Shown here: positions 31,560 through 45,512 of the stretch, one piece after another
Position numbering within the stretch: the first letter of the stretch is position 1
How the letters are laid out: every line of letters begins with the position of its first letter
Source: an archaeon
Lineage (GTDB): Archaea; Nanobdellota; Nanobdellia; SCGC-AAA011-G17; GW2011-AR17
Reading direction: 5' to 3'
Length of the DNA stretch: 64,000 nt
Assembly: GCA_018692925.1 (NCBI GenBank)
Contig: JABHLH010000016.1
Location: 19,462-83,461, forward strand
The notes under the pieces: generated by a model
What the model was told of the DNA's origin: nothing
The model's database searches: none
Seen by the model: only the letters and a program-made list of their open reading frames with translations
Program-made: the position numbers and the translations under genes

Positions 31560-33101
31560 TTACTTATTTTCAACTTTAATTTCATCATTATCAAGAACAT
31601 CAATCTCAGAAGTCATTTTTTCCAACCTATAGTAGATATTCTTCAAATCAGGCCTAAACAAAGACTTAGCACTTTGATCCATATAAGGCAATTTATCTAA
31701 AAGAACTTTCATCATTTTATCACTATAATATAATTCTTTCATTACAGCTCTCAAGATATTAAATTTAGTTCTTTTCTTAAACTTAAAGAAAACATTCAAA
31801 GTATCTTTAATATCTAAAACTAAACTCTTTTCTTTTATCCAAGGAGATTTATCTAAAAGATATCTATCATTCCAAGAAGAGTCAACTAAATTCCATTCTT
31901 TCATTTTTTTAGGATGGCTATACTCTCCACTTTCAACTAGCTCATCATACATTGAACCACCTGGATAAGGCCTATAAATACTTGGACCATGTAAATATAA
32001 ATTTGGATTAATTTTATACAATTCTAAAATAAATCTAAAAGTTCTCAACATATCATCTCTATTCTCTCCAGGCATTCCAATAATAAAACTAGTTCTTGGA
32101 ACAATTCCTGCTTCACCACAATCTTTTACAGCTCTCATAACACTTTCTAACTTCAAACCTTTCCTCATTTTCTTCAACATTCTATCAGAACCAGATTCAA
32201 CACCAAAAAGAATAGCTGTACCACCTAACTCTCTCATTCTTTTCAAAACATCAACTGTCAAATAATCATCATTAATATAATCAGCTCTACATTGTGAGTT
32301 CCAAGTAAATTTCAAACCCCTTCTCTCAATCTCGTCTAAAAATCTAAAGAACCTATCTTTCTTCACAAAAAACAATTCATCAATCAAATAAATATCATCA
32401 ACTTCATGCTCATTAATTAACCATTCAATTTCATCTAAAACATGATCAATATCTCTACCTTGCCATTTTCTTTGCATTGCAGAATTAATACAGAAAGTAC
32501 ATGAAAAAGGACATCCATTCCCAGAGAATACAATTCCAGTTTTAACTCTCACACCTTTTCTAAAAGGCAAACTTCTTTCAATAGGATGAAATTTATTTAT
32601 CAATTCATAATTCATTCTTGGTAACTTAGAAAGATCCATCAAACTTCTTTTATCATTAAATATTAACTCATCATTTTCTTTATACCCTAAACCTTTAATT
32701 TCACTTAATTTTTTATCTCCTCTCATTGCATGAATTAATTCTTCACAAAGTTCTTCACCATCTCCAAAACAGATATAATCAATCAACTCATGTTTCAAAG
32801 TTTGAATAGGGAATAAGATTGCATGATAACCACCAAAAATAACTTTAATCTTCGGAAATTTATCTTTAACATATTTAGCTAATTTAAGAGCTTCAGGAAT
32901 TTGTGTACTCATTGCAGAGATTCCAACATACAAAGTTTCTTCAGTAACAAAATTATCAACTGCTTCTAGATCTTTAGAACTGAAAATTAAATTAACATTA
33001 TACTCTTTAGCATCTAAGTAACTTCCAATTGAAAGCAATCCACAATTAAACTCTTCTGTTGACCCACTATGAGATGGATCTATGAATACCACATTTTCCA
33101 T
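31560..33101 (-). CDS. B12-binding (class B) radical SAM enzyme
   Basis: An N-terminal B12-binding domain is followed by a GCPFSCTFC cluster motif. Confidence 0.85.
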   Translation of the reverse strand: MENVVFIDPSHSGSTEEFNCGLLSIGSYLDAKEYNVNLIFSSKDLEAVDNFVTEETLYVGISAMSTQIPEALKLAKYVKDKFPKIKVIFGGYHAILFPIQTLKHELIDYICFGDGEELCEELIHAMRGDKKLSEIKGLGYKENDELIFNDKRSLMDLSKLPRMNYELINKFHPIERSLPFRKGVRVKTGIVFSGNGCPFSCTFCINSAMQRKWQGRDIDHVLDEIEWLINEHEVDDIYLIDELFFVKKDRFFRFLDEIERRGLKFTWNSQCRADYINDDYLTVDVLKRMRELGGTAILFGVESGSDRMLKKMRKGLKLESVMRAVKDCGEAGIVPRTSFIIGMPGENRDDMLRTFRFILELYKINPNLYLHGPSIYRPYPGGSMYDELVESGEYSHPKKMKEWNLVDSSWNDRYLLDKSPWIKEKSLVLDIKDTLNVFFKFKKRTKFNILRAVMKELYYSDKMMKVLLDKLPYMDQSAKSLFRPDLKNIYYRLEKMTSEIDVLDNDEIKVENK

Positions 33102-33189: not shown

Positions 33190-33591
33190 ATGATAAATAT
33201 GATTGCGGAGGGAAAAGTTCTAGTTATAGACTTAGATGGTGTACTATGTAAAATAAAAAGTTCTGAACAAGAATACTCAGACTTAGAACCCATTCCAGAA
33301 GTAATTGAAAGGATCAAACTTTACAAAAAAGAAGGATTCCATATAATTATCAACACTAGTAGAAACATGCGAACTTACAAAGGTAATCTTGGAAAAATAA
33401 ATGCTAATACTCTAAAAACTATTTTCCAGTGGTTAGATCACCATAATATTCCTTATGATGAAATTCACATTGGTAAACCTTGGTGTGGTAAAGAAGGATT
33501 TTACATTGATGACAAAGCAATCAGACCTTCAGAATTTTTAAACAAGAGTTATGACGAGATAAAAGAAATTTTAGATGGAGAGAAATTATGA
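33190..33591 (+). CDS. HAD-superfamily phosphatase, small capless GmhB/PNK-phosphatase-like
   Basis: Motif I is VIDLDGVLC, motif II is NTSR, and the Lys motif is GKP. Its stop overlaps the start of the next gene (ATGA). Confidence 0.6.
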   Translation: MINMIAEGKVLVIDLDGVLCKIKSSEQEYSDLEPIPEVIERIKLYKKEGFHIIINTSRNMRTYKGNLGKINANTLKTIFQWLDHHNIPYDEIHIGKPWCGKEGFYIDDKAIRPSEFLNKSYDEIKEILDGEKL

Positions 33592-35972
33592 AAAATTTAA
33601 TTTTAATTCCGACAGCTCTAAATGTTGACAAAGAGATGCATTTAGACATTGGAGAAATTCCACCTGTTCTTGTACCAATCAGTGGAAAACCATTATTAGA
33701 TTATATTATTGAAGCTTACAACAAATTCCCTGGAGAAAAAACTTATTGCCTTCTTGTTAATGAAAACAAAGATAGAGTTAAAAAAATAATTGAAAGGAAA
33801 AAATACAAAGAGAACATAAAATTAATTGAAATTGACAATCTTAGAAGTTTAGGTTGGACTATTTTCGAAGGTTTAAGCAAAATTAATCTTTCAGAATACG
33901 ACAATTTAATTGTTAACTTTGGAGACACTCTTGTCGATGAGAGTTTTGAAACAAACAAAGATTTAGTTCTTTATGATGACTTACCTGAAACTTACAGATG
34001 GACAACTTTTGAAACTGAAAACAACAAAATAATTCAAATCAAAGATAAAATAAATACAAACGAACACAAAATCCATCATGTATTTGTAGGAATATTCCAA
34101 ATAAAAAACCCCCAATTATACTTCCAAAAAATTGAAGAAGATCCTGACAAAGGTTTTTACTCAACTTTAATGTCTTACTTAAATTCAACAAATGAATATG
34201 AAATACTAAAAACAAACAAGTGGTACGACATAGGCCACATTGACAATTATTTCCAAACAAAAAAAGATTTCATCAATTTAAGATACTTCAACACAATAAA
34301 AATTCACGACAAAAAAGGAATTTTAGAAAAAACTAGTAAACATGAAAAATTCATTGGAGAAATAAAATGGTACTTACAAATCCCTCAAGAGCTTCAATCT
34401 TACCTACCAAAAATATTTGACTATTCAATAAATCCTGACAACCCTTTCATAAAAATGGAATATTATGGTTATCCTAACCTTGGAGAAATTTACACTTTTG
34501 GGAACTACAACTTAGGAATTTGGAGCCACATTTTTGATTCAATATTATACATTCTCGACGAGATGTCAAGATACAAACTAACAATCTCTGAAGAAGAAGC
34601 TAGAAAAGCTAGAGAAGAAATATTTGTAGACAAAACAATCCAAGCTTTAGAATTAATGTCAACAAAAGAAGAATTCAAACCTTTATTTGAAAACAAAATA
34701 ACAATCAATGGACAACAATATGAATCCTTAAATTTTTACAAAAACAAAATAAAAGAACTTTGTGAAGAACACTTACTAAATGCACCAAACGAATTCAATT
34801 TAATCCATGGTGACCTTTGTACATCAAACATTCTTTATGATCCAAAAAGTAAAATTACAAAACTAATTGACCCAAGAGGAAAATTTGGCCAACACACAAC
34901 TTATGGAGATTTCAGATACGACTTAGGAAAACTAACTCACAGTTTTAATGGAAAATATGAATTTATTATTAATGACTTATTCAACTTAGAAATTTCAAAC
35001 AACAATATAACTTATGAAATGTTTACTAACGACAAACATGAGAAAATTACAACCCTTTTCAAAAAAAGAATTGAAGAAAAATATCCAACTAATAAAGAAC
35101 AAATCCAATTAATTGAAGCTTTACAATATTTAAGTATGGTTCGAATGCATTTCCCAAAAACAGAAAGACAATTTGCAATGTTAACTACAGGAATTCAATT
35201 ACTAGATCCACTAATTGAAAAAGAAAACAAAATGAACATTATTTTACCAATGGCTGGGCTTGGTTCAAGATTCACAAAAGTAGGAATAACAACTCCTAAA
35301 CCTTTAATCAAAGTAAGAGGAAAACAATTAATCAAATGGGCTTTAGATTCCATCCCTCAAAATACAGAGCACAATTTAATTTTCATAGTTAGACAAGAAC
35401 ACATTAACGAATTCAAAATAGACCAAAAACTAAAAGAGTTATTTTCAGAAAACATAACAATCATACCAATTAATCATACAACAGAAGGAGCTGCTTGTAC
35501 AGTTTTACTTGCAAAGAAACACATAAACAACAACAATCCTTTAATTATCCTAGACTGCGACATTCACTTAAAAGTTCCAAAATATTTCGAATTATTAAAA
35601 GATAAAAATATCAAAGGAATTATTCCAGTTTTCAGAGGAGAAGGTGACAAATGGAGCTTTTCAAAAACAGATGAAAATATGAGAATTCAGGAAGTAGCAG
35701 AAAAAAATAGAATCTCAGAGTTTTGTAACATGGGAATGTATTTCTTCCAACATGGAAAAGATTTTGTTTGGGCAGCTGAAGACATGATAAATAAAAATAT
35801 AAGATTCAACAACGAATTTTATATCTCTCCAGTTTTTCAACAACTAATTGATAGAGGAGACCAAATCAAAGCAGCTTTATGTACAGAAGCTTGGGGACTT
35901 GGAACACCAGAAGATGTAAAACTTTTTGAAGAAATTTATCCTAAAGAAACTACTCAGTATACTCTGCTCTAA
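33588..35972 (+). CDS. Tri-domain enzyme: nucleotidyltransferase, then APH/choline-kinase-like kinase, then nucleotidyltransferase
   Basis: The N-terminus has LVPISGKPLLDYII and FGDTLVD, like a sugar/alcohol-phosphate NTP-transferase. The middle has LIHGDLCTSNILYD and GDFRYDLGKL, an APH/ChoK catalytic loop and DFG-equivalent. The C-terminus has ILPMAGLGSRF...KPLIKVRGKQLIKWALD, a second LicC/GlmU-like nucleotidyltransferase. Confidence 0.75.
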   Translation: MKNLILIPTALNVDKEMHLDIGEIPPVLVPISGKPLLDYIIEAYNKFPGEKTYCLLVNENKDRVKKIIERKKYKENIKLIEIDNLRSLGWTIFEGLSKINLSEYDNLIVNFGDTLVDESFETNKDLVLYDDLPETYRWTTFETENNKIIQIKDKINTNEHKIHHVFVGIFQIKNPQLYFQKIEEDPDKGFYSTLMSYLNSTNEYEILKTNKWYDIGHIDNYFQTKKDFINLRYFNTIKIHDKKGILEKTSKHEKFIGEIKWYLQIPQELQSYLPKIFDYSINPDNPFIKMEYYGYPNLGEIYTFGNYNLGIWSHIFDSILYILDEMSRYKLTISEEEARKAREEIFVDKTIQALELMSTKEEFKPLFENKITINGQQYESLNFYKNKIKELCEEHLLNAPNEFNLIHGDLCTSNILYDPKSKITKLIDPRGKFGQHTTYGDFRYDLGKLTHSFNGKYEFIINDLFNLEISNNNITYEMFTNDKHEKITTLFKKRIEEKYPTNKEQIQLIEALQYLSMVRMHFPKTERQFAMLTTGIQLLDPLIEKENKMNIILPMAGLGSRFTKVGITTPKPLIKVRGKQLIKWALDSIPQNTEHNLIFIVRQEHINEFKIDQKLKELFSENITIIPINHTTEGAACTVLLAKKHINNNNPLIILDCDIHLKVPKYFELLKDKNIKGIIPVFRGEGDKWSFSKTDENMRIQEVAEKNRISEFCNMGMYFFQHGKDFVWAAEDMINKNIRFNNEFYISPVFQQLIDRGDQIKAALCTEAWGLGTPEDVKLFEEIYPKETTQYTLL

Positions 35973-37407
35973 AAATTAATCTTGGGTTTTTCTTAATAAT
36001 CTTAATAACATCCTTTGCAGCTTTCTTAATACCATATCCTTTTGCATGATGATAAAGAACTTTAGCCTTATGTGTATATTCTTTCAAAAATAATTTAGGA
36101 TTAGTTCTTCTATAAGCACAATAAGCTTTATTAATTTCTTCTTCAGCTTCTCTTTTCACAACTAAAAGTTCATCATCAGACATATCAGAAAGATTAATTA
36201 AAATTTCATAAGTACCAGTTAGATTTCTTAAATATTCAACTTCATCAGTAATTCTACCATCTTCCACACACATTCTATAAAACTCAGAACCTGGCAATGG
36301 AGTACTAATAAAAAATTGTGTTACAGGTTGCACATGCAATCTTTTACAAAAATTAATTGTTTCTCTTACAGTTTCTCTAGTTTCTTTAGGGTTTCCAATC
36401 ATCATAAGAACTCCAGGAATCAAACCAGCTTTAACTGTCAATCTCAAAGCTCTCTCATTTAATTCTACAGTAGATTCTTTATTGATACTATCCAAAATAG
36501 TTTGGCTTCCAGATTCAATACCATAAGCAACATAATAACATCCTGAAGCTTTCATAGCTTTCAGAACTTCAAAATCAACATGATTAACTCTACCATTACA
36601 TTTCCATCTTATTTTCAAAGGCTTAATTTTTTCACAAAGCTCTAACATCCTTTTCCTAGACATCATAACTAACTCATCTTCAAAATCAATAACTTCAACT
36701 TTATACTTATCTTTCAAAATTTTAATTTCTTCAATAACGTTATCCACTGACCTCATATTTACAACTGGAAAATTCTTTGAACAAAAATGACAATTGAACG
36801 GACAACCTCTTGTAGTAATCACACACATTCTTCTTGAACTGTTTGCAATACCTAACCTTGTTGCACCAATATATTTTTCAACATCAAATAAATCCCAAGC
36901 TGGGAAAGGCACTTCATCAATTTTATGTATTTCAGAAATAGATTTAGTAACAAAAACTTTTCCATCTTTCAAATAAGCCATAGATTCAACTTCAGAAGGA
37001 TCTTCTAAATTTTCTAAGAGTTTAGGCATAACATATTCTCCCCAACCTAAAACACAAAAATCAACATCCATTGTTTCTAAAACTTGTTTATAATTATATT
37101 TTGCTAATGCTCCCCCAATTAAAATTTTTCTTTCAGGATGCATCCCTTTAACTTCTTTAATAAACCACTCCATATACTTAAAATGTGGAGACATTGCAGT
37201 AATCCCCATAATATCATATTCAATATCTTTTAGTTTTGAAAGTGTTTCTTCTTTAGAATAATGATTAACCCAAGCATCAAAAATTTCAACTTCATGACCC
37301 TTTTCTTTTAGAACAGCAGCTACATAAGCTAAGCCCAAAGGAAATCTTTGCGCCTCCCTGTCCTTATCCCCATGAAAATTTGGAGGTTGTACCAAAAGAA
37401 CCTTCAT
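35950..37407 (-). CDS. B12-binding (class B) radical SAM enzyme
   Basis: An N-terminal B12-binding domain (MKVLLVQPPNF...) is followed by a GCPFNCHFC cluster motif. Confidence 0.85.
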   Translation of the reverse strand: MKVLLVQPPNFHGDKDREAQRFPLGLAYVAAVLKEKGHEVEIFDAWVNHYSKEETLSKLKDIEYDIMGITAMSPHFKYMEWFIKEVKGMHPERKILIGGALAKYNYKQVLETMDVDFCVLGWGEYVMPKLLENLEDPSEVESMAYLKDGKVFVTKSISEIHKIDEVPFPAWDLFDVEKYIGATRLGIANSSRRMCVITTRGCPFNCHFCSKNFPVVNMRSVDNVIEEIKILKDKYKVEVIDFEDELVMMSRKRMLELCEKIKPLKIRWKCNGRVNHVDFEVLKAMKASGCYYVAYGIESGSQTILDSINKESTVELNERALRLTVKAGLIPGVLMMIGNPKETRETVRETINFCKRLHVQPVTQFFISTPLPGSEFYRMCVEDGRITDEVEYLRNLTGTYEILINLSDMSDDELLVVKREAEEEINKAYCAYRRTNPKLFLKEYTHKAKVLYHHAKGYGIKKAAKDVIKIIKKNPRLIFRAEYTE

Positions 37408-38194: not shown

Positions 38195-39418
38195 ATGAAA
38201 ATAGGAATTGCAATAAGCCTTTATGATAAATTTGACGAACTTGCTATTCTAATTGATATTATCAAAAAAAATTGGAAAGGAGATTACATTATTTCAGTTT
38301 GCAGTAACCATGAAAATCCAGAACCATTCTTAAAAGATTTAGACATTGATATTTTCACAAAAGGTGACGATATAATTGTTACAAAAGATATGCCTTGGAT
38401 GAGAAATAGTATCAACATGAGATCCAGAGTTTCTGATTGTATAAAAAAATCTTGTACTGCTGCAATAAATTCTGGAGCAGATTATGTAATGCACTTACAC
38501 ACAGATGCTTGGCCATTAAAAGAAAAAGAGATTCTTAAAATAATTGAACATATGAAAGAAAACAAAAAAACATTTGCTTTCAGAGGTTTAGGTTTCTCAA
38601 AATACAGACATGATTGCCCAGTTGGACACTTAGATGACATGTTCTTCATTTTCGAATCAAAGACTGCAAAGAAAAACAGATACTTTGATTTTAACACATT
38701 ATCCTTACTACCTCACAAACTTTCAATTCATGGTGTATTATCTTTAATTGTTTTAGGTAGAATAGGTTTAGAAAATGCTTACCATTATGATAACTTAAAA
38801 AATAATTATTTCTGGGACGGGAAAAAACATCCAGGTGACATTGAAAGAGTAAGGCCTTCTATTTATGAGCCAAACTTAGGATTGCTACACATTGACACAC
38901 CTACTTTCCCAAAAAATTATGGTAAAGCTGTTCAAGCAATGTACTTATACGAAAATAAATTAACAAAAGGTAAAACAATTAAAAAATTCCTTGAAAAAAA
39001 TCTAATGGACAAACAAAAGTTAATCAGAGCTTTAGATATTTATGAAAGGAAGTTAGATGATAGTTTAAGATTAAGAGGATTTCCAATTTTAAACTTCGGA
39101 AGATTTGGTAGAACTTTTACAAAGAAAGAAAAATATTTGAATGCGCCTTTCAAGAAAAAATTAAATTACTGGTTTGGTACAATGTCTAGAGAAATTTGGG
39201 ACAGAACAATTAAGAAAAAAATTGGAGTTGATTTAATTCCAGATTATTCTTTCTGGCCTGAAGATTTAGAAGTAATTTTAGCAAAAGCAACATTTGCAGA
39301 AGATTATCCTGATTCCTCTTTATTATGGTTCAAAGACAAGAAAAAGAACAAATTAAGAATAAAATCCTTACCAAAATTCTACAAAAAATTCTATAAATAC
39401 AACTATAAGGGAATGTAA
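38195..39418 (+). CDS. Hypothetical protein, possibly a glycan-modifying enzyme
   Basis: 407 aa and soluble. Conserved-looking His/Asp clusters (HLHTDAWP, HLDDMFF) are present. No family recognised. Confidence 0.4.
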   Translation: MKIGIAISLYDKFDELAILIDIIKKNWKGDYIISVCSNHENPEPFLKDLDIDIFTKGDDIIVTKDMPWMRNSINMRSRVSDCIKKSCTAAINSGADYVMHLHTDAWPLKEKEILKIIEHMKENKKTFAFRGLGFSKYRHDCPVGHLDDMFFIFESKTAKKNRYFDFNTLSLLPHKLSIHGVLSLIVLGRIGLENAYHYDNLKNNYFWDGKKHPGDIERVRPSIYEPNLGLLHIDTPTFPKNYGKAVQAMYLYENKLTKGKTIKKFLEKNLMDKQKLIRALDIYERKLDDSLRLRGFPILNFGRFGRTFTKKEKYLNAPFKKKLNYWFGTMSREIWDRTIKKKIGVDLIPDYSFWPEDLEVILAKATFAEDYPDSSLLWFKDKKKNKLRIKSLPKFYKKFYKYNYKGM

Positions 39419-39458: not shown

Positions 39459-39680
39459 ATGGCAACAACTACTATTCAAATTAGTCACGAATTACTTACT
39501 AAATTAAAAGAAAGAAAACTTTATGACAAAGAATCTTATGAAGAGGTTATTTGGGATGCACTTGAAGATTCAATGACTTTATCAGAAGAAACTAAAAAAA
39601 GAATCAAACTTGCAGAAGCTGATATAAAAGCTGGAAGAATTTATTCTCTTGAAGAAGTAAAAAAGGAGCTTAATCTCTAA
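39459..39680 (+). CDS. Type II antitoxin, partner of the following RelE-like toxin
   Basis: 73 aa, acidic and helical. It overlaps the toxin gene by 1 nt (TAATG). Confidence 0.55.
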   Translation: MATTTIQISHELLTKLKERKLYDKESYEEVIWDALEDSMTLSEETKKRIKLAEADIKAGRIYSLEEVKKELNL

Positions 39681-39928
39681 TGTTTAACATCTTTTTTACT
39701 AATGAAGCCAAGAAATTTCTTAAAAAACTCAATAAAGAAGACAAAACTAGAATTATCTCCGCTTTAGAAAGATCAAGAGTTAGACCTCATGCTCATGTAA
39801 AAAAATTAATTTCTTCTCCTTACTTTCGACTAAGAATTGGAAAATATAGGGCTATTCTTGATATTAACAATGGTAAATTAACAATAATTGTAATTGAAAT
39901 TGGACATAGAAAAAAGATATATAAATAA
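39680..39928 (+). CDS. RelE/ParE-family type II toxin
   Basis: 82 aa. The C-terminus (YRAILDINNGKLTIIVIEIGHRKKIY) matches the RelE/ParE consensus (YRIIY.I....V.IL.IGHRK..Y). Confidence 0.7.
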   Translation: MFNIFFTNEAKKFLKKLNKEDKTRIISALERSRVRPHAHVKKLISSPYFRLRIGKYRAILDINNGKLTIIVIEIGHRKKIYK

Positions 39929-40018: not shown

Positions 40019-41842
40019 GTGAACGAAATTAAAGAGGCTATAATTCTAGCAGCAGGATCTAGCCGTAGAATGGGATTGCTTTGTGAGGGAAAACATAAAT
40101 CTTTATTGAAGTATAAAGAGAATACTATCTTAGCTAGAATTATCAATCAACTAAAGAAGGCTAATATTGAGAAATTAGTAATTGTTGTTGGATTCGCAAA
40201 GGATAAAATCATTGAAGAAACAAAAAACATTCAAGATATTGAAATTAAAATTGTAGAAAATCCAAGATATTATGAGGATACAAACATATATTCTATGAAA
40301 CTTGCTTTAGACCACATAGAAAACCCATTTATAATTGTTGAAGCAGATATGATCACTGAAGATGCATTAATCCAATATTTAGCTGGTTCTGACTTTGAAG
40401 GAAAATCTACTTGGCTTACCAAAGGAAAATTTAATGATATGCAATATGGTGGGATATTAAGATCTGATGAATTAGGAAACATAAATGATATTAGAATTGT
40501 TCCTGAATATAGAGATGAATATCAAGAGCACACAAAATTAACAGGTTTAATGAGAGTTGGTCCAAATGAAGTTGATTTATTCAAAAAACTTGTAAACATT
40601 TATGCAGAAAAAACTTTCAAACAATATTTTTTAATTCCTTGGATTGAAAACTTAACACATTTACCTTGTATTGAAGGTGATGCAAGTCAATACAAATTTT
40701 CAACTTTCAATTCACCAGAAGATTACTATAAAGCTATTGAACTAGAATTTGATGAAGAACAAGCACAAGAAAAAGAAATAAATTTCATAGAAACTGAAAG
40801 ATTAAAACATATAGAAAACTTTGACGAAGATAGAGTACAAATATTAATCCAAAAAATTGAAAGAGATGGTGCTTGGTTAAAACCTATTTACATTGAAAAA
40901 AATCACAACTTAGTTCTTGATGGACAACACAGATTACAAGCTGCAATAAGAATGGGAATTAAAAAAATCCCTACACAAGGTTTTGATTATGAAGATGTAA
41001 AAGTTTGGACTTTAAGAAAAGAAGAATATGTTGACATTCCAACTGTAATTGCAAGAGCAAATCAAGGAGACATATATCCTTACAAAACAGTAAAACATAA
41101 TTTCCCAAGAGTGATCAGTGAATGCTACATACCTCTAGAAAATCTAAAAGGAAATATTGTAATTGAAGAAAGAAAAGAAAAATCTAAAAGATTAATTATT
41201 TTAGCAGCAGGCCAAGGTTTCAAAATTCATGGTTTAAACAAACTTTTCATAAAAGATCCAAAAAATAAAGAAATTTTAATTGAAAAATATATTAGACTTT
41301 TCAAAGATTATGAAATTACAGTAGTTCTAGGACACAAAGCTCTACATGTAATGCAAGAATACCCTCAACTAAATTATGTTTACAATGATCAGTGGCGAAT
41401 TACTGGAAATAGTTATAGTTTAAGTTTAGCTTTAGATGATAGACCTACAATCGTAACATCATCAGATTTAATTTTCGATGAAGAAATGTTAAATTTAATT
41501 GAATCTTCACCAGACAACTCAGTATTTGTATTTCAATCTGAAAACAAAGGTTACAACACAGTAAGATGCAAATCTGAAAATGGAAAACTAAAAGAAATGT
41601 TCTTTGGAGAACAATATTCAAATGAACCTGAAACAACAGGAATTTACAAAATTTCAAATCCAGATTTACTTAGGGAATGGAAAAAAAGATGTTCAAATAA
41701 TAAAAATGTTTTCGCAGGAATAAATTTACCTTTAGAAAATCTTAAAATTGATATAATTGACATTAAAAATACATTCTTCCATGAAATAAACACTCCATTA
41801 GACTACATTAATTTAATTGAGAAAACAAAAAATGGATCTTAG
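40019..41842 (+). CDS. Nucleotidyltransferase, then ParB/Srx-like domain, then nucleotidyltransferase (fusion protein, GTG start)
   Basis: The N-terminus AIILAAGSSRRMG is a MobA/IspD/LicC-like GT-A nucleotidyltransferase P-loop. The middle domain has DGQHRLQAAIRMG, giving the DGxHR and GxxRxxA motifs of the ParB/sulfiredoxin fold. The C-terminus LIILAAGQGFKIHG is a second nucleotidyltransferase. Confidence 0.7.
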   Translation: MNEIKEAIILAAGSSRRMGLLCEGKHKSLLKYKENTILARIINQLKKANIEKLVIVVGFAKDKIIEETKNIQDIEIKIVENPRYYEDTNIYSMKLALDHIENPFIIVEADMITEDALIQYLAGSDFEGKSTWLTKGKFNDMQYGGILRSDELGNINDIRIVPEYRDEYQEHTKLTGLMRVGPNEVDLFKKLVNIYAEKTFKQYFLIPWIENLTHLPCIEGDASQYKFSTFNSPEDYYKAIELEFDEEQAQEKEINFIETERLKHIENFDEDRVQILIQKIERDGAWLKPIYIEKNHNLVLDGQHRLQAAIRMGIKKIPTQGFDYEDVKVWTLRKEEYVDIPTVIARANQGDIYPYKTVKHNFPRVISECYIPLENLKGNIVIEERKEKSKRLIILAAGQGFKIHGLNKLFIKDPKNKEILIEKYIRLFKDYEITVVLGHKALHVMQEYPQLNYVYNDQWRITGNSYSLSLALDDRPTIVTSSDLIFDEEMLNLIESSPDNSVFVFQSENKGYNTVRCKSENGKLKEMFFGEQYSNEPETTGIYKISNPDLLREWKKRCSNNKNVFAGINLPLENLKIDIIDIKNTFFHEINTPLDYINLIEKTKNGS

Positions 41843-43070
41843 AACAATTACTATTGGAATTCCTATTAACATAGAATCAGATACATTATTACATCTAGAA
41901 TCTAAATTAAAAAATTTTCTTGAAGAAACAACAATAGCATTAGCAACAGAAAATATTAATATAAGAACTTTCAGAATAAATTTAACTCCGGTTACAAATA
42001 AAGATTCAAATTTAAACTCACAAAAAATAATAGGAAAAATAGAAACTTTCTCAAACTTTGCAGAAAAATTAAACATTAGGTGGATTAACATCCCTTATGA
42101 TTTAACAGAGAACCCAAAAGAATTATCTGAACTTGCTTTTACAATATTAAAAAGATATCCTAAAACTTTTTCAAATTTAATTGTTGCAAAAGATAAAAAT
42201 ATTTCTTACAACGCAATCCCAATAGCTAGTAAATTCATAAAAGATGTTTCAAAATTAGACAACTCTGGATACAATAATTTTAGAGTAGGGGTTTCTTGCA
42301 ACATCAAAGCAAATACTCCATTCTTCCCATACACTTACAGTTCAGAGGAATTAGGAATCTCAACAGGGTTAGAGTTACCAAAAGAATTCATAAAGATAAT
42401 CAACTCTTCAGAGAATAGAGATCTAATCTCATTAAGAGAAGAAATAATAACAAAGATTTCTCCTGAGGTAAACAAAATAAACAATATCCTTTCAGTTTTA
42501 GCAAAAAAACATTTCATTAAATACAATGGGATTGATTTTTCCTTAGCTCCTTATCCTGAAAAAGGTAGCAGTGTTGCAGAATTAATTGAGCTTTTAGGTT
42601 TAGAACAACTTGGCAGCAATGGAACATTGTTCTTAACTTCATACTTAACTGACATATTAAAAGAAATACAAAAAAGAAACAACACTCCAACAACAGGCTT
42701 CAATGGTGTAATGTTTTCTTTATTAGAAGATGAACAACTAGGCTTAAGAAACAACAACAAGTTATTTTCAATTGATTCATTAATTTCATATTCAGCAGTT
42801 TGCGGATGTGGTTTAGACATGATTCCTTTACCAGGAGATATTTTCGAAGAAGAGCTTAACTCAATAATCTTAGATGTAGCTGCCTTATCAACAACCTTAG
42901 ACAAACCTTTAGGAGTAAGAGTATTACCAATTCCAACAAAGCAAGAAAATGAATTCACAACCTTTAACATGGATTTTTTATTCAACACAAGGGTCAAAAA
43001 ACCTAAAAACTTAAGTTTATCAAACAGATTATTAACAAATACAAAATTTTCATATTTAAAATGGCAATAG
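41817..43070 (+). CDS. UPF0210 (DUF711) family protein
   Basis: MDLRTITIGIPI matches the UPF0210 N-terminal DIRTITMGISL. C-terminal CGCGLDMIPLP and GVRVLPIP match SVGLDMIAIP and RIIP of the family. The true start may be the Met at 41832. Confidence 0.7.
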   Translation: MRKQKMDLRTITIGIPINIESDTLLHLESKLKNFLEETTIALATENINIRTFRINLTPVTNKDSNLNSQKIIGKIETFSNFAEKLNIRWINIPYDLTENPKELSELAFTILKRYPKTFSNLIVAKDKNISYNAIPIASKFIKDVSKLDNSGYNNFRVGVSCNIKANTPFFPYTYSSEELGISTGLELPKEFIKIINSSENRDLISLREEIITKISPEVNKINNILSVLAKKHFIKYNGIDFSLAPYPEKGSSVAELIELLGLEQLGSNGTLFLTSYLTDILKEIQKRNNTPTTGFNGVMFSLLEDEQLGLRNNNKLFSIDSLISYSAVCGCGLDMIPLPGDIFEEELNSIILDVAALSTTLDKPLGVRVLPIPTKQENEFTTFNMDFLFNTRVKKPKNLSLSNRLLTNTKFSYLKWQ

Positions 43071-44476
43071 ATTTGAAGGAAGTAAAAAACTTTTGGGAAA
43101 AGCGAGCAGAACAACATAGTGACAACCAAGGTATTACTAACTTAGAAGAAAATAATAAATTAAGAAAATTAAAAACAGAGTTAGAAGAAAATAAAGTTGA
43201 TGAATATCTTCCTCAATTACAAAACAAAACAATTCTAGATTTAGCTGGAGGATATGGTAGATGGGCATTTAGATTTACAAAAAAAGCAAAAGAAGTACAT
43301 GTTGTAGACTATTGTTATGATTTAATTGCTTTAGGAAAAAAGAAATCTAAAGAACAAGGAATAAACAACATCAAATATTTTCAAGCATCAGCTCAGGATT
43401 ATGATAGTAAAACTAAATATGATATTATTTTCATCTCTGGTCTTTTAATTTACTTAAACGATGAAGACCTAAAAACTTTAGGAGAAAAGATTAGACAATA
43501 TTCTCATGAAAACACAAAAGTCATTTTAAGAGATGGAACTGGTATCAAAGGAAGATTTGAAATTAACAGAAGATTCTCTGAAGCTTTACAAACTTATTAT
43601 AGCGCAACTTACAGAACTCCAGAACAATACATTTCTTTCTTCAAAAGCATTGGTTTTGAAATTGTAAAACAAGACAATATGTTTGAAGAAGGTTGTGAAT
43701 TAAATAAATTCCCTGAAACAAGATTAAAAATTTACAAATTTAATAAAAAAACTACAAAAAAAGAAAAGAAAAAGCTTTCATTAAAAGAAATCAGAGAAGG
43801 TAAACATATCAAAGAAGGATTATACACAGACATTCTAAGAGTCCCTCATGTTACACTTACATACTTAATTGTTCACGCAATCAAAGACACAAAGATTACT
43901 CCAAACCAAGTAACTTTATTCAGTATGATTTTACTATTAATTGCAACATATTTCTATGCTGGTGGAACTTATGTATATGCTTTAATTGCTTCTTTACTTT
44001 ACTATTTATCTTTCGTTTTCGACACTGTTGATGGAAATTTAGCAAGACAAAAAGAGATGTGTTCACCTCTTGGAGGCTGGTATGATAAAATAGCTGACAG
44101 AATAATGAATCCAATTTTATTCTTTGCAATAGCTTGGGGTATTTACTTAAACAATCCTTCAGTTTATGTTTGGATTTGGACTTTCACAGCTTTTGCTGTA
44201 TTAGAATTCTCTGTAATAGTACAATATAATTTTAGAGTAATGTTTAATTTTGGAATGGACGAAGTAAAAAAGGAAAGAAAGAAAAGAGGATGGCTAAAAG
44301 AATTTATGTTAAACGACTTTTTCTTATGTCACAGTATAATTCTATTTAGTATTTTTGGCATCTTAGAATACTACATGATATTCTTCACACTATATGGAGG
44401 ATTATTTGACATTGCAATGGTTACAGTAATGACATACAAAGCTAAAAAACATCTCAAAAATGAAAACAGACCTTAA
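43061..44476 (+). CDS. Fusion of a class I SAM methyltransferase (N-terminal) to a CDP-alcohol phosphatidyltransferase (C-terminal, polytopic)
   Basis: N-terminal motif I is ILDLAGGYGRW. The C-terminus has a perfect CDP-OH-PT signature, DTVDGNLARQKEMCSPLGGWYDKIAD (D-G-x2-A-R-x8-G-x3-D-x3-D), followed by TM helices. Confidence 0.8.
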   Translation: MAIDLKEVKNFWEKRAEQHSDNQGITNLEENNKLRKLKTELEENKVDEYLPQLQNKTILDLAGGYGRWAFRFTKKAKEVHVVDYCYDLIALGKKKSKEQGINNIKYFQASAQDYDSKTKYDIIFISGLLIYLNDEDLKTLGEKIRQYSHENTKVILRDGTGIKGRFEINRRFSEALQTYYSATYRTPEQYISFFKSIGFEIVKQDNMFEEGCELNKFPETRLKIYKFNKKTTKKEKKKLSLKEIREGKHIKEGLYTDILRVPHVTLTYLIVHAIKDTKITPNQVTLFSMILLLIATYFYAGGTYVYALIASLLYYLSFVFDTVDGNLARQKEMCSPLGGWYDKIADRIMNPILFFAIAWGIYLNNPSVYVWIWTFTAFAVLEFSVIVQYNFRVMFNFGMDEVKKERKKRGWLKEFMLNDFFLCHSIILFSIFGILEYYMIFFTLYGGLFDIAMVTVMTYKAKKHLKNENRP

Positions 44477-45512
44477 CACAATAATAATAAAAAATGCAGA
44501 ACATTTCCTTAATAATAAAACTGCTCCTGGTCACAATGGTCCATACAACGATCCTGAAACTTATGTTAGAACTCATGCACATCTTTCAATTTTATTCTTC
44601 AAAGCTTTCAAAATAACTAAGAATAACAAATACAAAAAGGAAGCTATCAGACAAATAAACTTTCTTTTATTAAAAGAAGCTAGACCATATAACTCAACTT
44701 TCCATTATAGAAATAAAAAAGGAAAAGACAAATGTAATGGCTTAATAGGTCAAGCTTGGTCAATTGAAGCTTTAATGATTGCTTATGAAAATACAAAAGA
44801 TATAAAATATAAAAACTTAGCAAAACAAGCATTCCATTACATAAACTACCACAATTTTTTATCTTACTGGAAAAAAAGAGAAATCAATGGCAAAGAATTA
44901 TTCCTAGATTTAACTTTTAATCACCAACTTTGGTTTGCTGCAGCTTCTTCATTAATTTCAAACTCAAAAAAAGACAGTATTGGCAAAGAGATTAACAAGT
45001 TTATGGACGAACTTGAAAACAATTTACATATTCACAAAAACGGATTAATCAGACATTTCATTTATCCACAGATTATAACACCATTAAATTTCCTAATGAA
45101 CAAAACTTCAAAAAAATATCTTTATACAAAAGAAGCTTCATATCATGCATTCAATCTTTATGCTTTTGCAATATTAAAACAAAGATTCCCTTCTCATAAA
45201 TTTTGGAGATCTAAGAAGTTCAAAAAATTAACTCAATATGCTATAAGTAAAGAACACTTAAAAATTGCTGAAAAAAACAAATATGGTTTCTCTTACAACC
45301 CTTCAGGAATTGAGACCGCATTTTTCATTTACACATTCAAAGAACAATTCAACAAACCCTCAAAAATGATTAAAATAGCATTAGAAAAACAATTTAGAAG
45401 AAACTTAAACACAAAAACTTTAACTTTAACTGAAAAAACATCAGACCCAAATACTTTAGCTTTAAGAATTTATGAAGCAACTCGTATTCCTAATTTAAAA
45501 CTAGACTTTTAA
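44460..45512 (+). CDS. Hypothetical protein, possibly an (alpha/alpha)-toroid-like polysaccharide-modifying enzyme
   Basis: 350 aa. GLIGQAWSIEALMIAYE and aromatic-rich helices resemble the repeat pattern of six-hairpin enzymes. The link is weak. Confidence 0.35.
   Translation: MKTDLNTIIIKNAEHFLNNKTAPGHNGPYNDPETYVRTHAHLSILFFKAFKITKNNKYKKEAIRQINFLLLKEARPYNSTFHYRNKKGKDKCNGLIGQAWSIEALMIAYENTKDIKYKNLAKQAFHYINYHNFLSYWKKREINGKELFLDLTFNHQLWFAAASSLISNSKKDSIGKEINKFMDELENNLHIHKNGLIRHFIYPQIITPLNFLMNKTSKKYLYTKEASYHAFNLYAFAILKQRFPSHKFWRSKKFKKLTQYAISKEHLKIAEKNKYGFSYNPSGIETAFFIYTFKEQFNKPSKMIKIALEKQFRRNLNTKTLTLTEKTSDPNTLALRIYEATRIPNLKLDF

What the first reader, a model, noticed from the sequence alone, without database searches (positions are those of the whole stretch)
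40019..41842. ParB/sulfiredoxin-like domain inserted between two nucleotidyltransferase domains
The middle domain has DGQHRLQAAIRMG. That gives both the DGxHR signature of the ParB/Srx fold and a GxxRxxA motif like the ParB CTP-binding box. ParB N-domains are now known as CTP-binding switches. Finding this fold fused between two GT-A-type nucleotidyltransferase P-loops (AIILAAGSSRRMG and LIILAAGQGFKIHG) suggests a CTP-handling or phosphotransfer role in small-molecule activation. That is not a described context for this fold. The gene uses a GTG start and directly follows a RelE toxin gene.
Basis: partly seen in the sequence, partly recalled or inferred. Interest (0 to 1): 0.65.

Follow-up and report, generated by a model that had tools for sequence, protein, structure and literature searches.

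The report
Serine-kinase-like domain fused to cytidylyltransferases
This archaeal gene joins a small-molecule kinase with the ParB/sulfiredoxin fold (a relative of the serine kinases SerK and SbnI) to two LicC-like nucleotidyltransferase domains, and it belongs to a widespread, uncharacterised gene cassette that most likely makes a CDP-activated head group for cell-envelope lipids or glycans.

Summary
ORF 40019-41842 (607 aa, GTG start) has the domain order NT1, ParB/Srx-fold domain, NT2, and it follows a ParE/RelE toxin gene.

The middle domain is not a generic ParB CTP switch. It is a trimmed member of the SerK/SbnI free-serine-kinase branch:
- Foldseek gives SerK TM 0.82 against about 0.43 for ParB.
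- The profile E-value is 2.6e-12 for SerK against 2e-5 for ParB.
- The catalytic Glu/Asp equivalents, DGQHR and a SerK-type KTVKH motif are invariant or nearly so in 120 homologs.
- The alanine of "GxxRxxA" is not conserved in register, and GxxR does not indicate CTP specificity.

NT1's only sequence match among solved structures is LicC, the CTP:phosphocholine cytidylyltransferase.

The three-domain form is a rare fusion of genes that are normally adjacent. In 16 of 16 independent loci across bacteria and archaea, the kinase gene is linked to DUF711. It usually also has a LicD or CDP-alcohol transferase and a methyltransferase resembling phosphoethanolamine N-methyltransferases.

Best reading: a kinase feeds a cytidylyltransferase, which feeds a transferase, much like the Lic/Kennedy pathways but with a different kinase. 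The substrate is unknown, and an amino alcohol derived from serine or ethanolamine is my best guess. I found no paper describing this fusion. I rate it a new variant of a known kind, of moderate interest.

The parts
40019..41842 (+). Three-domain ORF (607 aa, GTG start): NT1, SerK-like ParB/Srx domain, NT2
   Evidence: The full-length AF2 model has pLDDT 91.5 and three domains, with a low-confidence linker at residues 381-384. The identical protein was found on 20 contigs. NCBI names it 'NTP transferase domain-containing protein [archaeon]'.
40019..40744 (+). NT1: LicC-like nucleotidyl (probably cytidylyl) transferase domain, residues 1-242
   Evidence: Pfam NTP_transf_3, E 1e-22. Its only PDB sequence hit is LicC 1jyk, E 4.5e-8. 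The best fold matches of the full-length model are PntC, LicC (TMt 0.87) and IPCT.
40037..40075 (+). NT1 signature loop AIILAAGSSRRMG (residues 7-19)
   Evidence: L10, A11, A12, G13, S15, R16, R17 and M18 are at least 90% conserved.
40745..41173 (+). Middle domain (residues 243-385): ParB/Srx fold, SerK/SbnI-type small-molecule kinase lacking SerK's insert of about 85 aa
   Evidence: NCBIfam SerK, E 5e-8. phmmer against SerK 5x0b, E 9e-7. Profile search: SerK 2.6e-12, SbnI 2e-8, ParB 2e-5. Foldseek: SerK TMq 0.82, SbnI 0.76, ParB/Noc/Srx about 0.40-0.45.
40814..40816 (+). E266, which aligns with the SerK catalytic base E30
   Evidence: Aligned. Invariant in 120/120 homologs. SerK E30A and E30Q mutant structures are in the PDB.
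40919..40957 (+). DGQHRLQAAIRMG (residues 301-313): the DGxHR / GxxR phosphate-binding motif of the fold
   Evidence: D301, G302 and H304 are invariant. R305 is kept in 118/120, A308 in only 35/120 and A309 in 114/120.
41084..41098 (+). KTVKH (residues 356-360): matches the C-terminal SerK motif KTTRH, which ParB and Srx lack
   Evidence: Second aligned segment with SerK residues 205-241. K356, T357, V358, K359 and H360 are invariant in 120/120.
41174..41839 (+). NT2: second NTP_transf_3-like domain (residues 386-607), normally a separate adjacent gene
   Evidence: Pfam E 4.8e-6. 123 homologs, almost all stand-alone at 212-235 aa. NT2 is a separate adjacent gene in L008, L012, L019, L092, L093 and L094. 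Conserved motifs are WRITGNSYSL, SSDLxFD, NTVRC and FHEINTPLDY.
41192..41233 (+). NT2 signature loop LIILAAGQGFKIHG (residues 392-405), with Lys in place of the usual Arg and a loop 4 residues shorter
41832..43070 (+). DUF711/UPF0210 gene. It overlaps the end of the three-domain ORF by 11 nt and is the invariable partner of the kinase gene
   Evidence: Pfam DUF711, E 2e-70. PDB 2ha9, E 2.8e-21. Linked to the kinase gene in 16 of 16 independent loci. The ATG at 41832 is.
43061..44476 (+). Fusion of a methyltransferase (about residues 1-235) with a CDP-alcohol phosphatidyltransferase (residues 279-389). It overlaps DUF711 by 10 nt
   Evidence: Pfam and NCBIfam. The methyltransferase domain's top PDB hits are phosphoethanolamine N-methyltransferases. 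With a cassette-methyltransferase profile, AtPMT1 scores 4.5e-22 and AtPMT2 1.4e-21.
44460..45512 (+). 350-aa ORF of unknown function that overlaps the previous gene by 17 nt (probably the same operon)
   Evidence: The only Pfam signal is a weak C5-epim_C hit, E 1.4e-4. No counterpart was found in the other loci.

Best explanation
The protein is a multifunctional head-group-activating enzyme.

Proposed mechanism. The middle domain is a SerK/SbnI-type kinase with the ParB/Srx fold. It phosphorylates a small hydroxyl compound, most likely a serine- or ethanolamine-like amino alcohol or hydroxy-amino acid. NT1, a LicC-like cytidylyltransferase, condenses the phospho-product with CTP to give CDP-X. 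The phospho-X unit is then transferred by the CDP-alcohol phosphotransferase encoded two genes downstream, or by LicD in many bacterial relatives, onto a lipid or glycan of the cell envelope. The cassette methyltransferase resembles phosphoethanolamine N-methyltransferases and probably N-methylates the head group. DUF711, the invariable partner, probably makes or converts the substrate. NT2 is a second, divergent nucleotidyltransferase of unknown role. The logic is that of the LicA/LicC/LicD and Kennedy pathways, with the usual choline-kinase-fold kinase replaced by a ParB/Srx-fold kinase.

Shown here: the folds, the residue conservation and the gene linkage. Inferred: catalysis, the order of steps, the identity of X and the phosphate donor.
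For: Kinase assignment:
- NCBIfam SerK, E 5e-8.
- Profile against the PDB: SerK 2.6e-12, SbnI 2e-8, ParB 2e-5.
- Foldseek: SerK TMq 0.82 and rmsd 2.5, against about 0.43 for ParB/Noc/Srx.
- E266 (SerK E30), D301, G302, H304 and K356-H360 are invariant in 120 homologs.

Nucleotidyltransferase assignment:
- NT1's only PDB sequence hit is LicC.
- The best fold matches are PntC, LicC and IPCT, all cytidylyltransferases that act on small phospho-alcohols or phosphonates.

Pathway context:
- The window ORFs overlap by 11, 10 and 17 nt, which suggests one operon.
- The kinase gene is linked to DUF711 in 16 of 16 independent loci from Nanoarchaeota, Planctomycetota, Chloroflexota, Myxococcota, Bacillota, Bacteroidota, Actinomycetota and Patescibacteria.
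- CDP-OH_P_transf is present in 5 loci and LicD in 6 (same calls).
- A related methyltransferase is present in 10 of 16 loci, and the profile of these methyltransferases ranks phosphoethanolamine N-methyltransferases first by about 6 orders of magnitude.
- None of the relatives' cassettes examined carries an APH-fold kinase or a choline permease next to the gene; in the window a weak APH-fold region lies 4 kb upstream (33588-35972), outside the operon.
- The module also exists unfused, as separate stand-alone SerK-like, NT, DUF711, methyltransferase and racemase-family genes in L094.
- The window lies in a cell-envelope glycan/lipid island of a DPANN archaeon.
Against: - No biochemical data exist for any member of the family.
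- The domain scores far below the SerK equivalog cut-off (32 bits against 380) and lacks SerK residues of about 121-204, so the substrate need not be serine.
- Methyltransferase similarity is dominated by the shared SAM-binding fold, and only 10 of 16 loci carry such a methyltransferase.
- The roles of DUF711, NT2 and the Asp/Glu-racemase-family gene (7 of 16 loci) are unexplained. Needing two unknown enzymes weakens any simple route from serine to phosphoethanolamine.
- The Foldseek table for the full-length model does not say which NT domain matched LicC.
Confidence: 0.62

Rival explanations
1. The middle domain is a CTP-binding ParB-type switch or sensor. It would regulate or feed the neighbouring cytidylyltransferase domains according to CTP level and would not phosphorylate a substrate itself.
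For: The fold is that of the ParB CTPases. The GxxR P-motif is present and conserved. The neighbouring domains presumably use CTP. One archaeal SerK-like protein bound CTP in vitro (PMC12704722).
Against: Similarity to true ParB, Noc and KorB is much weaker than to the SerK and SbnI kinases (TMq about 0.43 against 0.82; E 2e-5 against 2.6e-12). The residues equivalent to the kinase catalytic base and Asp are invariant, as is the SerK-specific C-terminal KTVKH motif that ParB lacks. There is no HTH, Box III or dimerisation domain. GxxR is not specific for CTP. The loci otherwise lack any kinase to make the NT substrate.
Confidence: 0.1
2. The domain is a strict L-serine kinase like SerK or SbnI. 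Its product, O-phosphoserine, feeds ordinary metabolism (cysteine or serine interconversion), and the fusion to nucleotidyltransferases is incidental.
For: SerK and SbnI are the closest characterised relatives. JGI names some homologs 'L-serine kinase (ADP)'.
Against: The gene is always linked to DUF711 and to LicD or CDP-alcohol transferases, glycosyltransferases and flippases. It is not linked to cysK, serA or serC, unlike the serK neighbourhoods described in PMC5120207. The conserved fusion to a LicC-like domain in more than 100 clusters argues for substrate hand-over. The score is far below the SerK equivalog cut-off.
Confidence: 0.1
3. The middle domain is catalytically inert and serves as a structural spacer or oligomerisation module between two nucleotidyltransferases, or it works in reverse as a phosphatase, as proposed for DUF1015 'SerBK'.
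For: The domain is a trimmed version of SerK that lacks about 85 residues. Remote SbnI-like proteins have been proposed to replace a phosphatase (bioRxiv 10.1101/2024.10.14.618325).
Against: About 20 residues are invariant across phyla and cluster in the motifs that form the SerK active site. Stand-alone versions of about 130 aa are common (2,330 clusters) and occur in the same cassette, which an inert linker would not explain.
Confidence: 0.06
4. The domain is a ParB-like nuclease or DNA-binding domain.
For: The close SerK homolog PF0380 (1vk1) was once reported as a nuclease (PMC5120207), and Pfam ParB_N gives a weak hit.
Against: No DNA-binding domain is present. The context is entirely envelope biosynthesis. 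The protein first annotated as ParB, to which 1vk1 is closely related, turned out to be a serine kinase.
Confidence: 0.02

Closest known systems
SerK (Thermococcus kodakarensis TK0378; PDB 5x0b) and SbnI (Staphylococcus; PDB 5uje), the free L-serine kinases of the ParB/Srx fold
   Same: The fold is the same over the whole 143-aa domain (TMq 0.82 and 0.76). The aligned catalytic Glu and the DGxHR Asp, His and Arg are conserved, as is the C-terminal G-x-(I/V)-Y-x-x-K-T-x-(K/R)-H motif. All are small-molecule enzymes rather than DNA clamps.
   Different: Identity is only about 16%. SerK residues of about 121-204 are missing. The domain is fused to a cytidylyltransferase rather than stand-alone. 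The genomic context is envelope head-group synthesis, not cysteine or siderophore synthesis. The score is far below the NCBIfam SerK cut-off (32 against 380 bits). Substrate and phosphate donor are unknown.
The Lic-1 pathway (LicA choline kinase, LicC CTP:phosphocholine cytidylyltransferase, LicD phosphotransferase) and LicC-LicA fusion proteins
   Same: The logic of kinase, cytidylyltransferase and phosphotransferase is the same, and the kinase is fused to the NT. NT1 is LicC-like. LicD genes lie in the bacterial loci.
   Different: The kinase has the ParB/Srx fold, not the APH/choline-kinase fold. No LicB permease is present. DUF711 and a PMT-like methyltransferase are additional obligate or frequent partners, which suggests de novo synthesis of the head group rather than choline uptake. 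In the window the transferase is a CDP-alcohol phosphotransferase rather than LicD.
IPCT/DIPPS (bifunctional inositol-1-phosphate cytidylyltransferase / CDP-inositol transferase; PDB 4mnd, 2xme)
   Same: A GT-A-type cytidylyltransferase works with a CDP-alcohol phosphotransferase of the same subfamily. NCBIfam IPCT/DIPPS and archaetidylinositol-phosphate synthase are among the best hits, and there are fold matches. IMPase-family genes lie in the related locus L004.
   Different: Scores are far below the equivalog cut-offs (65.7 against 580 bits). IPCT/DIPPS has no kinase domain, because its substrate comes from inositol-phosphate synthase. Here the CDP-alcohol transferase is fused to a methyltransferase, not to the NT.
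Canonical ParB/Noc/KorB CTPase clamps and sulfiredoxin
   Same: They share the core N-domain fold of about 80-110 residues and the GxxR phosphate-binding motif.
   Different: There is no HTH, Box III or dimerisation domain. Similarity is weaker than to SerK. Pfam ParB_N is below its threshold. The domain has the SerK-specific C-terminal segment.

Membership tests
ParB/Srx fold (Pfam PF02195 ParB_N superfamily) | Sequence match to PF02195 at or above the gathering score (26.3 bits) | tested here: not met
   16.7 bits for the whole protein and 19.7 bits for the isolated domain. Some homologs carry precomputed PF02195 hits.
ParB/Srx fold (Pfam PF02195 ParB_N superfamily) | Three-dimensional fold of the ParB N-domain or sulfiredoxin | tested here: met
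   AF2 model with pLDDT 90.8. Foldseek hits to Noc, ParB, pNOB8 ParB-N, Srx and KorB have probability 0.96-1.0 and E 3e-4 to 5e-2. The profile search gives ParB 2e-5.
ParB/Srx fold (Pfam PF02195 ParB_N superfamily) | Conserved DGxHR / GxxR phosphate-binding (P) motif | tested here: met
   D301, G302 and H304 are kept in 120/120 homologs and R305 in 118/120. The trailing Ala of GxxRxxA is not conserved in register (A308 in 35/120).
Canonical ParB-type CTP-dependent DNA clamp | HTH DNA-binding domain, Box III (ENxxR) and a C-terminal dimerisation domain | tested here: not met
   Pfam detects only NTP-transferase domains on either side. The alignment with ParB covers only the N-domain.
Canonical ParB-type CTP-dependent DNA clamp | CTP binding and hydrolysis | not testable with these tools
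   Nucleotide specificity of this fold cannot be predicted from sequence or from AF3 (PMC12704722).
SerK/SbnI free serine kinases | NCBIfam NF053625 (SerK equivalog) at or above its cut-off of 380 bits | tested here: not met
   32.4 bits, E 5e-8, over residues 253-346. The domain is a homolog, not an equivalog.
SerK/SbnI free serine kinases | Overall fold, including the C-terminal segment that ParB and Srx lack | tested here: met
   TMq 0.82 and rmsd 2.5 to 5x0b, and TMq 0.76 to 5uje. Two aligned segments match SerK residues 14-120 and 205-241.
SerK/SbnI free serine kinases | Catalytic base Glu (SerK E30) and the Asp of DGHHR | tested here: met
   E266 and D301 align with them and are invariant in 120/120 homologs. 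E30 mutant structures are listed. That the Asp is essential in SbnI is from my own recollection of Verstraete et al. 2018, which I could not read here.
SerK/SbnI free serine kinases | Complete two-domain architecture of about 240 aa | tested here: not met
   About 85 residues (SerK 121-204) have no counterpart, and the domain is about 135-143 aa long.
SerK/SbnI free serine kinases | Phosphorylation of free L-serine with ADP or ATP | not testable with these tools
   Requires an enzyme assay.
LicC-type CTP:phospho-alcohol cytidylyltransferases (NT1) | GT-A-like NTP_transferase fold with the LAAGxGxR...K signature, and LicC as the nearest characterised relative | tested here: met
   NTP_transf_3 at 81.5 bits against 27. 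LicC 1jyk is the only PDB sequence hit, E 4.5e-8. Foldseek finds LicC at TMt 0.87, plus PntC and IPCT.
LicC-type CTP:phospho-alcohol cytidylyltransferases (NT1) | CTP specificity and phosphocholine as substrate | not testable with these tools
   Requires an assay.
Lic-1 phosphocholine pathway | LicA (APH-fold choline kinase) and LicB (choline permease) present | tested here: not met
   Neither was found in the cassette in any of the 16 loci. An unrelated fusion with a weak APH-fold match (E 4e-4, below gathering) plus an NT domain lies 4 kb upstream in the window.
Lic-1 phosphocholine pathway | LicD phosphotransferase present | tested here: inconclusive
   LicD is present in 6 bacterial loci. 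It is absent from the window, which has CDP-OH_P_transf instead.

The most novel reading that the evidence does not exclude
The cassette is a choline-independent, soluble de novo route to CDP-ethanolamine, CDP-N-methylethanolamine or CDP-choline in prokaryotes. In this reading, serine or ethanolamine is phosphorylated by the ParB/Srx-fold kinase. DUF711/UPF0210 supplies the missing decarboxylation step from (phospho)serine to (phospho)ethanolamine. A PMT-like enzyme N-methylates the product, NT1 makes the CDP derivative, and LicD or a CDP-alcohol phosphotransferase installs it on glycans or lipids. This would give DUF711, a PFL/RNR-like barrel that has been a structural-genomics orphan since 2006, its first function. 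It would also let gut and rumen bacteria and DPANN archaea display zwitterionic head groups without taking up choline.
Probability: 0.2. Interest if true: 0.75.

Novelty: new variant of a known kind. Interest (0 to 1): 0.52.

Why it matters
The fold's use as a small-molecule kinase is already known, and so are kinase-cytidylyltransferase fusions. What is new is their combination and the strictly conserved partnership with DUF711, found across at least eight phyla.

- This is a widespread, unannotated head-group activation module. Databases call it only 'NTP transferase domain-containing protein' or, misleadingly, 'choline kinase'.
- The most complete published survey of ParB-fold fusions missed it, probably because most members fall below Pfam's ParB_N threshold.
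- It offers a concrete, testable hypothesis for DUF711/UPF0210.
- It points to an unknown phosphodiester-linked decoration of envelopes in rumen and gut Bacillota and Bacteroidota and in DPANN archaea. Such decorations (phosphocholine, phosphoethanolamine) are known to matter for immune recognition and phage sensitivity.

Tried and rejected
- Pfam ParB_N alone is sub-threshold and would not have settled the fold. Profile and structure searches were needed.
- The genome-contig scan was dominated by the generic NT P-loop pattern. Only L012-L020 of the 80 loci were relevant.
I therefore could not map SerK's serine-binding residues, and I make no claim about substrate identity from active-site residues.
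- Literature searches for DUF711, UPF0210, 'serine kinase + ParB + cytidylyltransferase', 'ParB-like + cytidylyltransferase' and 'CDP-ethanolamine/LicD/LicC' found no description of the fusion or the cassette.
- No tRNA or Rfam features occur in the window.
- I considered a link to phosphonate tailoring, because PEP mutase fused to a cytidylyltransferase lies near the cassette in L006 and L015. I rejected it as the general explanation because 14 of 16 loci lack PEP mutase.
- I considered that NT2 and the Asp/Glu-racemase-family gene are mutually exclusive alternatives. L094 carries both, so I rejected that.
- The uncharacterised neighbours hyp407 (38195-39418) and hyp350 (44460-45512) have no counterparts in other loci.
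- The RelE/ParE toxin-antitoxin pair is not conserved with the cassette and is unrelated to function.
Full report
**1. Observation**

ORF 40019..41842 (+) encodes 607 aa from a GTG start. The N-terminus (V/M)NEIKEAIILAAG matches the MNEIKEAI start of homologs.

Pfam finds NTP_transf_3 at the N-terminus (E 1e-22). When the C-terminal 231 aa are scanned alone, it finds NTP_transf_3 there too (E 4.8e-6, just at the gathering score). Between them, ParB_N scores only 16.7-19.7 bits against a gathering score of 26.3.

The gene upstream (39680-39928) is a ParE/RelE-superfamily toxin with its antitoxin at 39459-39680.

The window is AT-rich (28.8% GC) and archaeal. It encodes CDC48, a family-B DNA polymerase and HerA. 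The protein is deposited as 'NTP transferase domain-containing protein [archaeon]', and a member of its 90% cluster is from a 'Nanoarchaeota archaeon'. The organism is therefore a DPANN archaeon.

**2. What the middle domain is**

NCBIfam matches residues 253-346 to the ADP-dependent L-serine kinase SerK (E 5e-8).

A phmmer search of residues 243-388 against the PDB gives:
- SerK 5x0b at 9e-7
- SbnI at 0.04
- ParB at 0.03

A profile built from 39 homologous domains sharpens the ranking:
- SerK at 2.6e-12
- SbnI at 2e-8
- Myxococcus ParB at 2e-5
- Noc and Spo0J at about 1e-2
- sulfiredoxin at 0.16

AlphaFold2 models are confident: the full-length model has pLDDT 91.5 and the isolated domain has pLDDT 90.8 and pTM 0.84. 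Foldseek against the PDB puts SerK first (E 2.4e-10, TM normalised to the query 0.82, rmsd 2.5 Å). SbnI follows (TM 0.76). ParB, Noc, pNOB8 ParB-N, KorB and Srx follow with TM of only about 0.40-0.45 over 80-110 residues.

The ParB/Srx fold is therefore real, but the domain belongs to the kinase branch of that fold. Two SerK segments are matched, residues 14-120 and 205-241, so the domain is SerK without its insert of about 85 residues.

**3. Conservation**

In 120 homologs with 46-91% identity, these residues are invariant: E266, W286, P289, D301, G302, H304, P318, Y324, P354 and K356-T357-V358-K359-H360. Q303 and R305 are nearly invariant.

E266 aligns with SerK E30. That residue is the one mutated in the E30A and E30Q structures listed, and from my own knowledge of Nagata et al. 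2017 it is described as the catalytic base. D301 aligns with the Asp of SerK's DGHHR motif. KTVKH aligns with SerK's KTTRH, a segment that ParB and Srx do not have.

The conserved alanine is the next residue, A309 (114 of 120).

The recent survey of the fold (PMC12704722) states that the GxxR P-motif is nearly invariable among CTP-, ATP- and GTP-binding members. It also states that neither sequence nor AlphaFold3 predicts nucleotide specificity. The motif therefore identifies the fold and a phosphate-binding site. It does not identify CTP.

**4. The flanking domains**

NT1's only significant sequence match among solved structures is LicC, the pneumococcal CTP:phosphocholine cytidylyltransferase (E 4.5e-8).

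The full-length model's best fold matches are:
- PntC, the phosphonate-specific cytidylyltransferase
- LicC (TM normalised to the target 0.87)
- the inositol-1-phosphate cytidylyltransferases of Thermotoga and Archaeoglobus

All of these enzymes put CMP on small phospho-alcohols or phosphonates.

NT2 is divergent. Its loop reads LAAGQGFK(L/I)xGxNKL, with Lys where Arg is usual, and it is four residues shorter. Several strongly conserved motifs (WRITGNSYSL, SSDLxFD, NTVRC, FHEINTPLDY) indicate purifying selection.

**5. Fusion, not insertion**

More than 100 homolog clusters of the whole protein are two-domain proteins of about 375-390 aa, consisting of NT1 plus the SerK-like domain. They come from many bacterial phyla. 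Only P0001-P0004 have three domains.

A search with NT2 alone finds 123 clusters, almost all stand-alone at 212-235 aa. At least 17 of them share their longest-contig length with two-domain hits, which is an indirect sign that they lie on the same contig.

NT2 is directly seen as a separate gene immediately after NT1-SerK-like in Anaerolineales (L008), Scalinduaceae (L012), Kofleriaceae (L019), L092 and L093.

The SerK-like domain also occurs as a stand-alone protein of about 130-175 aa. The exhaustive profile search finds 2,330 representative clusters at E≤1e-3 and 812 at E≤1e-10. One such stand-alone gene (L094) is followed by an NT2-like gene, DUF711, a methyltransferase and an Asp/Glu-racemase-family gene.

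**6. The conserved cassette**

In all 16 independent loci I examined, the kinase gene is linked to a DUF711/UPF0210 gene. The linkage is usually immediately downstream and often overlapping.

| Component | Loci carrying it |
|---|---|
| DUF711/UPF0210 | 16 of 16 |
| CDP-OH_P_transf | 5 (window, L004, L008, L092, L093) |
| LicD | 6 (L006, L010, L013, L014, L016, weakly L018) |
| Methyltransferase related to the window's | 10 |
| Asp/Glu-racemase-family gene | 7 |
| NT2 (fused or separate) | 8 |

In the window, five recurrent components are packed into three ORFs that overlap by 11 and 10 nt:
- NT1-SerK-like-NT2
- DUF711
- methyltransferase-CDP-OH_P_transf

A further 350-aa ORF overlaps the third by 17 nt.

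None of the relatives' cassettes examined carries an APH-fold kinase or a choline permease. The window sits in an island of GT-C, GT1, GT2 and GT4 glycosyltransferases, a flippase, LPG_synthase_TM and methyltransferases. By contrast, the module in L093 is not in a glycan cluster, so a lipid target is equally possible.

**7. The methyltransferase clue**

The window's methyltransferase domain has plant and nematode phosphoethanolamine N-methyltransferases as its best solved relatives, with 5wp5 at 1.2e-9. The alignment is colinear from residue 5.

A profile of nine cassette methyltransferases ranks the PMTs first:
- AtPMT1 at 4.5e-22
- AtPMT2 at 1.4e-21
- Haemonchus PMT1 at 2.9e-16
- the first non-PMT at 6.9e-16
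- Plasmodium PMT at about 6e-13

This is suggestive of N-methylation of a phospho-amino-alcohol. It is not proof, because class-I methyltransferase similarity is dominated by the SAM-binding fold. In loci without such a methyltransferase, FemAB-like and GNAT acyltransferases are present instead. That is compatible with a free amine on the head group, but this is inference.

**8. Mechanism proposed**

*Shown here:*
- the folds of the three domains
- conservation of the catalytic residues
- the gene linkage

*Inferred:*
- The SerK-like domain phosphorylates a small hydroxyl compound.
- NT1 converts the phospho-product and CTP into CDP-X.
- The CDP-alcohol transferase or LicD transfers phospho-X to an envelope lipid or glycan.
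- The methyltransferase N-methylates the head group.
- DUF711 supplies or converts the substrate.

The scheme mirrors LicA/LicC/LicD and the Kennedy pathway, with a non-homologous kinase. A second, classical example of the same logic lies 4 kb upstream in the window: a 794-aa protein with an APH-fold region and an NTP_transferase domain.

The phosphate donor (ATP, ADP or CTP) cannot be predicted. T. kodakarensis SerK uses ADP, and an archaeal SerK-like protein bound CTP in DRaCALA.

**9. What remains unexplained**

- The function of DUF711. It is a PFL/RNR-like ten-stranded barrel (PMC4390871). Its PDB relative is 2ha9, and there is no functional literature.
- The role of NT2.
- The role of the racemase-family gene.
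- The identity of X.

The most novel reading is that DUF711 is the (phospho)serine decarboxylase of a de novo route to CDP-ethanolamine or CDP-choline. It fits the PMT-like methyltransferase, the LicC-like NT, LicD and the absence of a permease. It rests on no direct evidence, and I give it about 0.2.

**10. Comparison with what is known, and novelty**

ParB/Srx-fold small-molecule kinases are known: SerK in 2016 and SbnI in 2018.

Kinase-cytidylyltransferase fusions are also known.

I found no paper describing the fusion of a SerK-like domain to a LicC-like cytidylyltransferase, or the cassette with DUF711. The 2025 PNAS survey of ParB-fold fusions lists HTH, HNH, methyltransferase, CBS, DUF3850 and other partners, but no nucleotidyltransferase, in either its text or the supplements held. 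Other searches were also negative.

Automated annotation gives 'NTP transferase domain-containing protein', 'choline kinase' or, for some homologs, 'L-serine kinase (ADP)'.

I therefore rate this a new variant of a known kind. It is of moderate interest, with a higher-interest but unproven reading concerning DUF711 and de novo synthesis of a zwitterionic head group.

Noticed in passing
window 33588-35972 (+): A 794-aa protein with a weak APH (choline/aminoglycoside-kinase fold) match at residues 387-450 and an NTP_transferase domain at residues 552-769. It is a second kinase-plus-nucleotidyltransferase fusion in the same island, flanked by two B12-binding radical SAM genes (31560-33101 and 35950-37407, both on the minus strand). 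In the near-identical contig L002 the gene is split into ORFs of 365 and 317 aa.
   Followed up: partly
window 39459-39928 (+): A type II toxin-antitoxin pair: a DUF7557 antitoxin of 73 aa whose stop overlaps the start of a ParE/RelE-family toxin of 82 aa. It sits inside the envelope-biosynthesis island directly upstream of the finding. It is absent from the corresponding position in all relatives' loci, so it is probably a local insertion.
   Followed up: partly
window 41832-43070 (+), and DUF711 genes in L004-L019 and L092-L094: DUF711/UPF0210 is a PFL/RNR-like barrel (PDB 2ha9) with no known function. It is linked to the SerK-like kinase gene in 16 of 16 loci across bacteria and archaea. 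This may be the first functional context for the family.
   Followed up: partly
L006 4190-5485; L015 4192-5487 (-): Butyrivibrio and a Lachnospiraceae MAG carry a fusion of PEP mutase with a CTP_transf_like domain (phosphonate biosynthesis), plus extra LicD genes, a few kb from the cassette. These genomes may therefore decorate their envelope with both a phosphonate and the cassette's product.
   Followed up: no
L012 1425-3234; L019 7671-9589: In Ca. Scalinduaceae the NT1-SerK-like gene and the NT2 gene are separated by a single base (2576 and 2578). In the Kofleriaceae MAG the two reading frames overlap extensively, which could be a frameshift or an assembly error. Together they show stages of gene fusion or fission next to the fully fused archaeal form.
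   Followed up: no
window 1-64000: The closest relatives of each cassette component are bacterial, from Scalinduaceae and Anaerolineales at 58-63% identity. The window itself is from a DPANN (Nanoarchaeota) archaeon with 28.8% GC. This suggests inter-domain transfer of the module. No tRNA, rRNA or Rfam element occurs in the 64 kb.
   Followed up: no
L004 5898-6737 and 10842-11768: The archaeal relative's locus carries two inositol-monophosphatase-family genes, one directly after DUF711, together with a CDP-OH_P_transf gene and a flippase. This hints at a phosphorylated intermediate that has to be dephosphorylated, as in the DIPP or PIP pathways.
   Followed up: no
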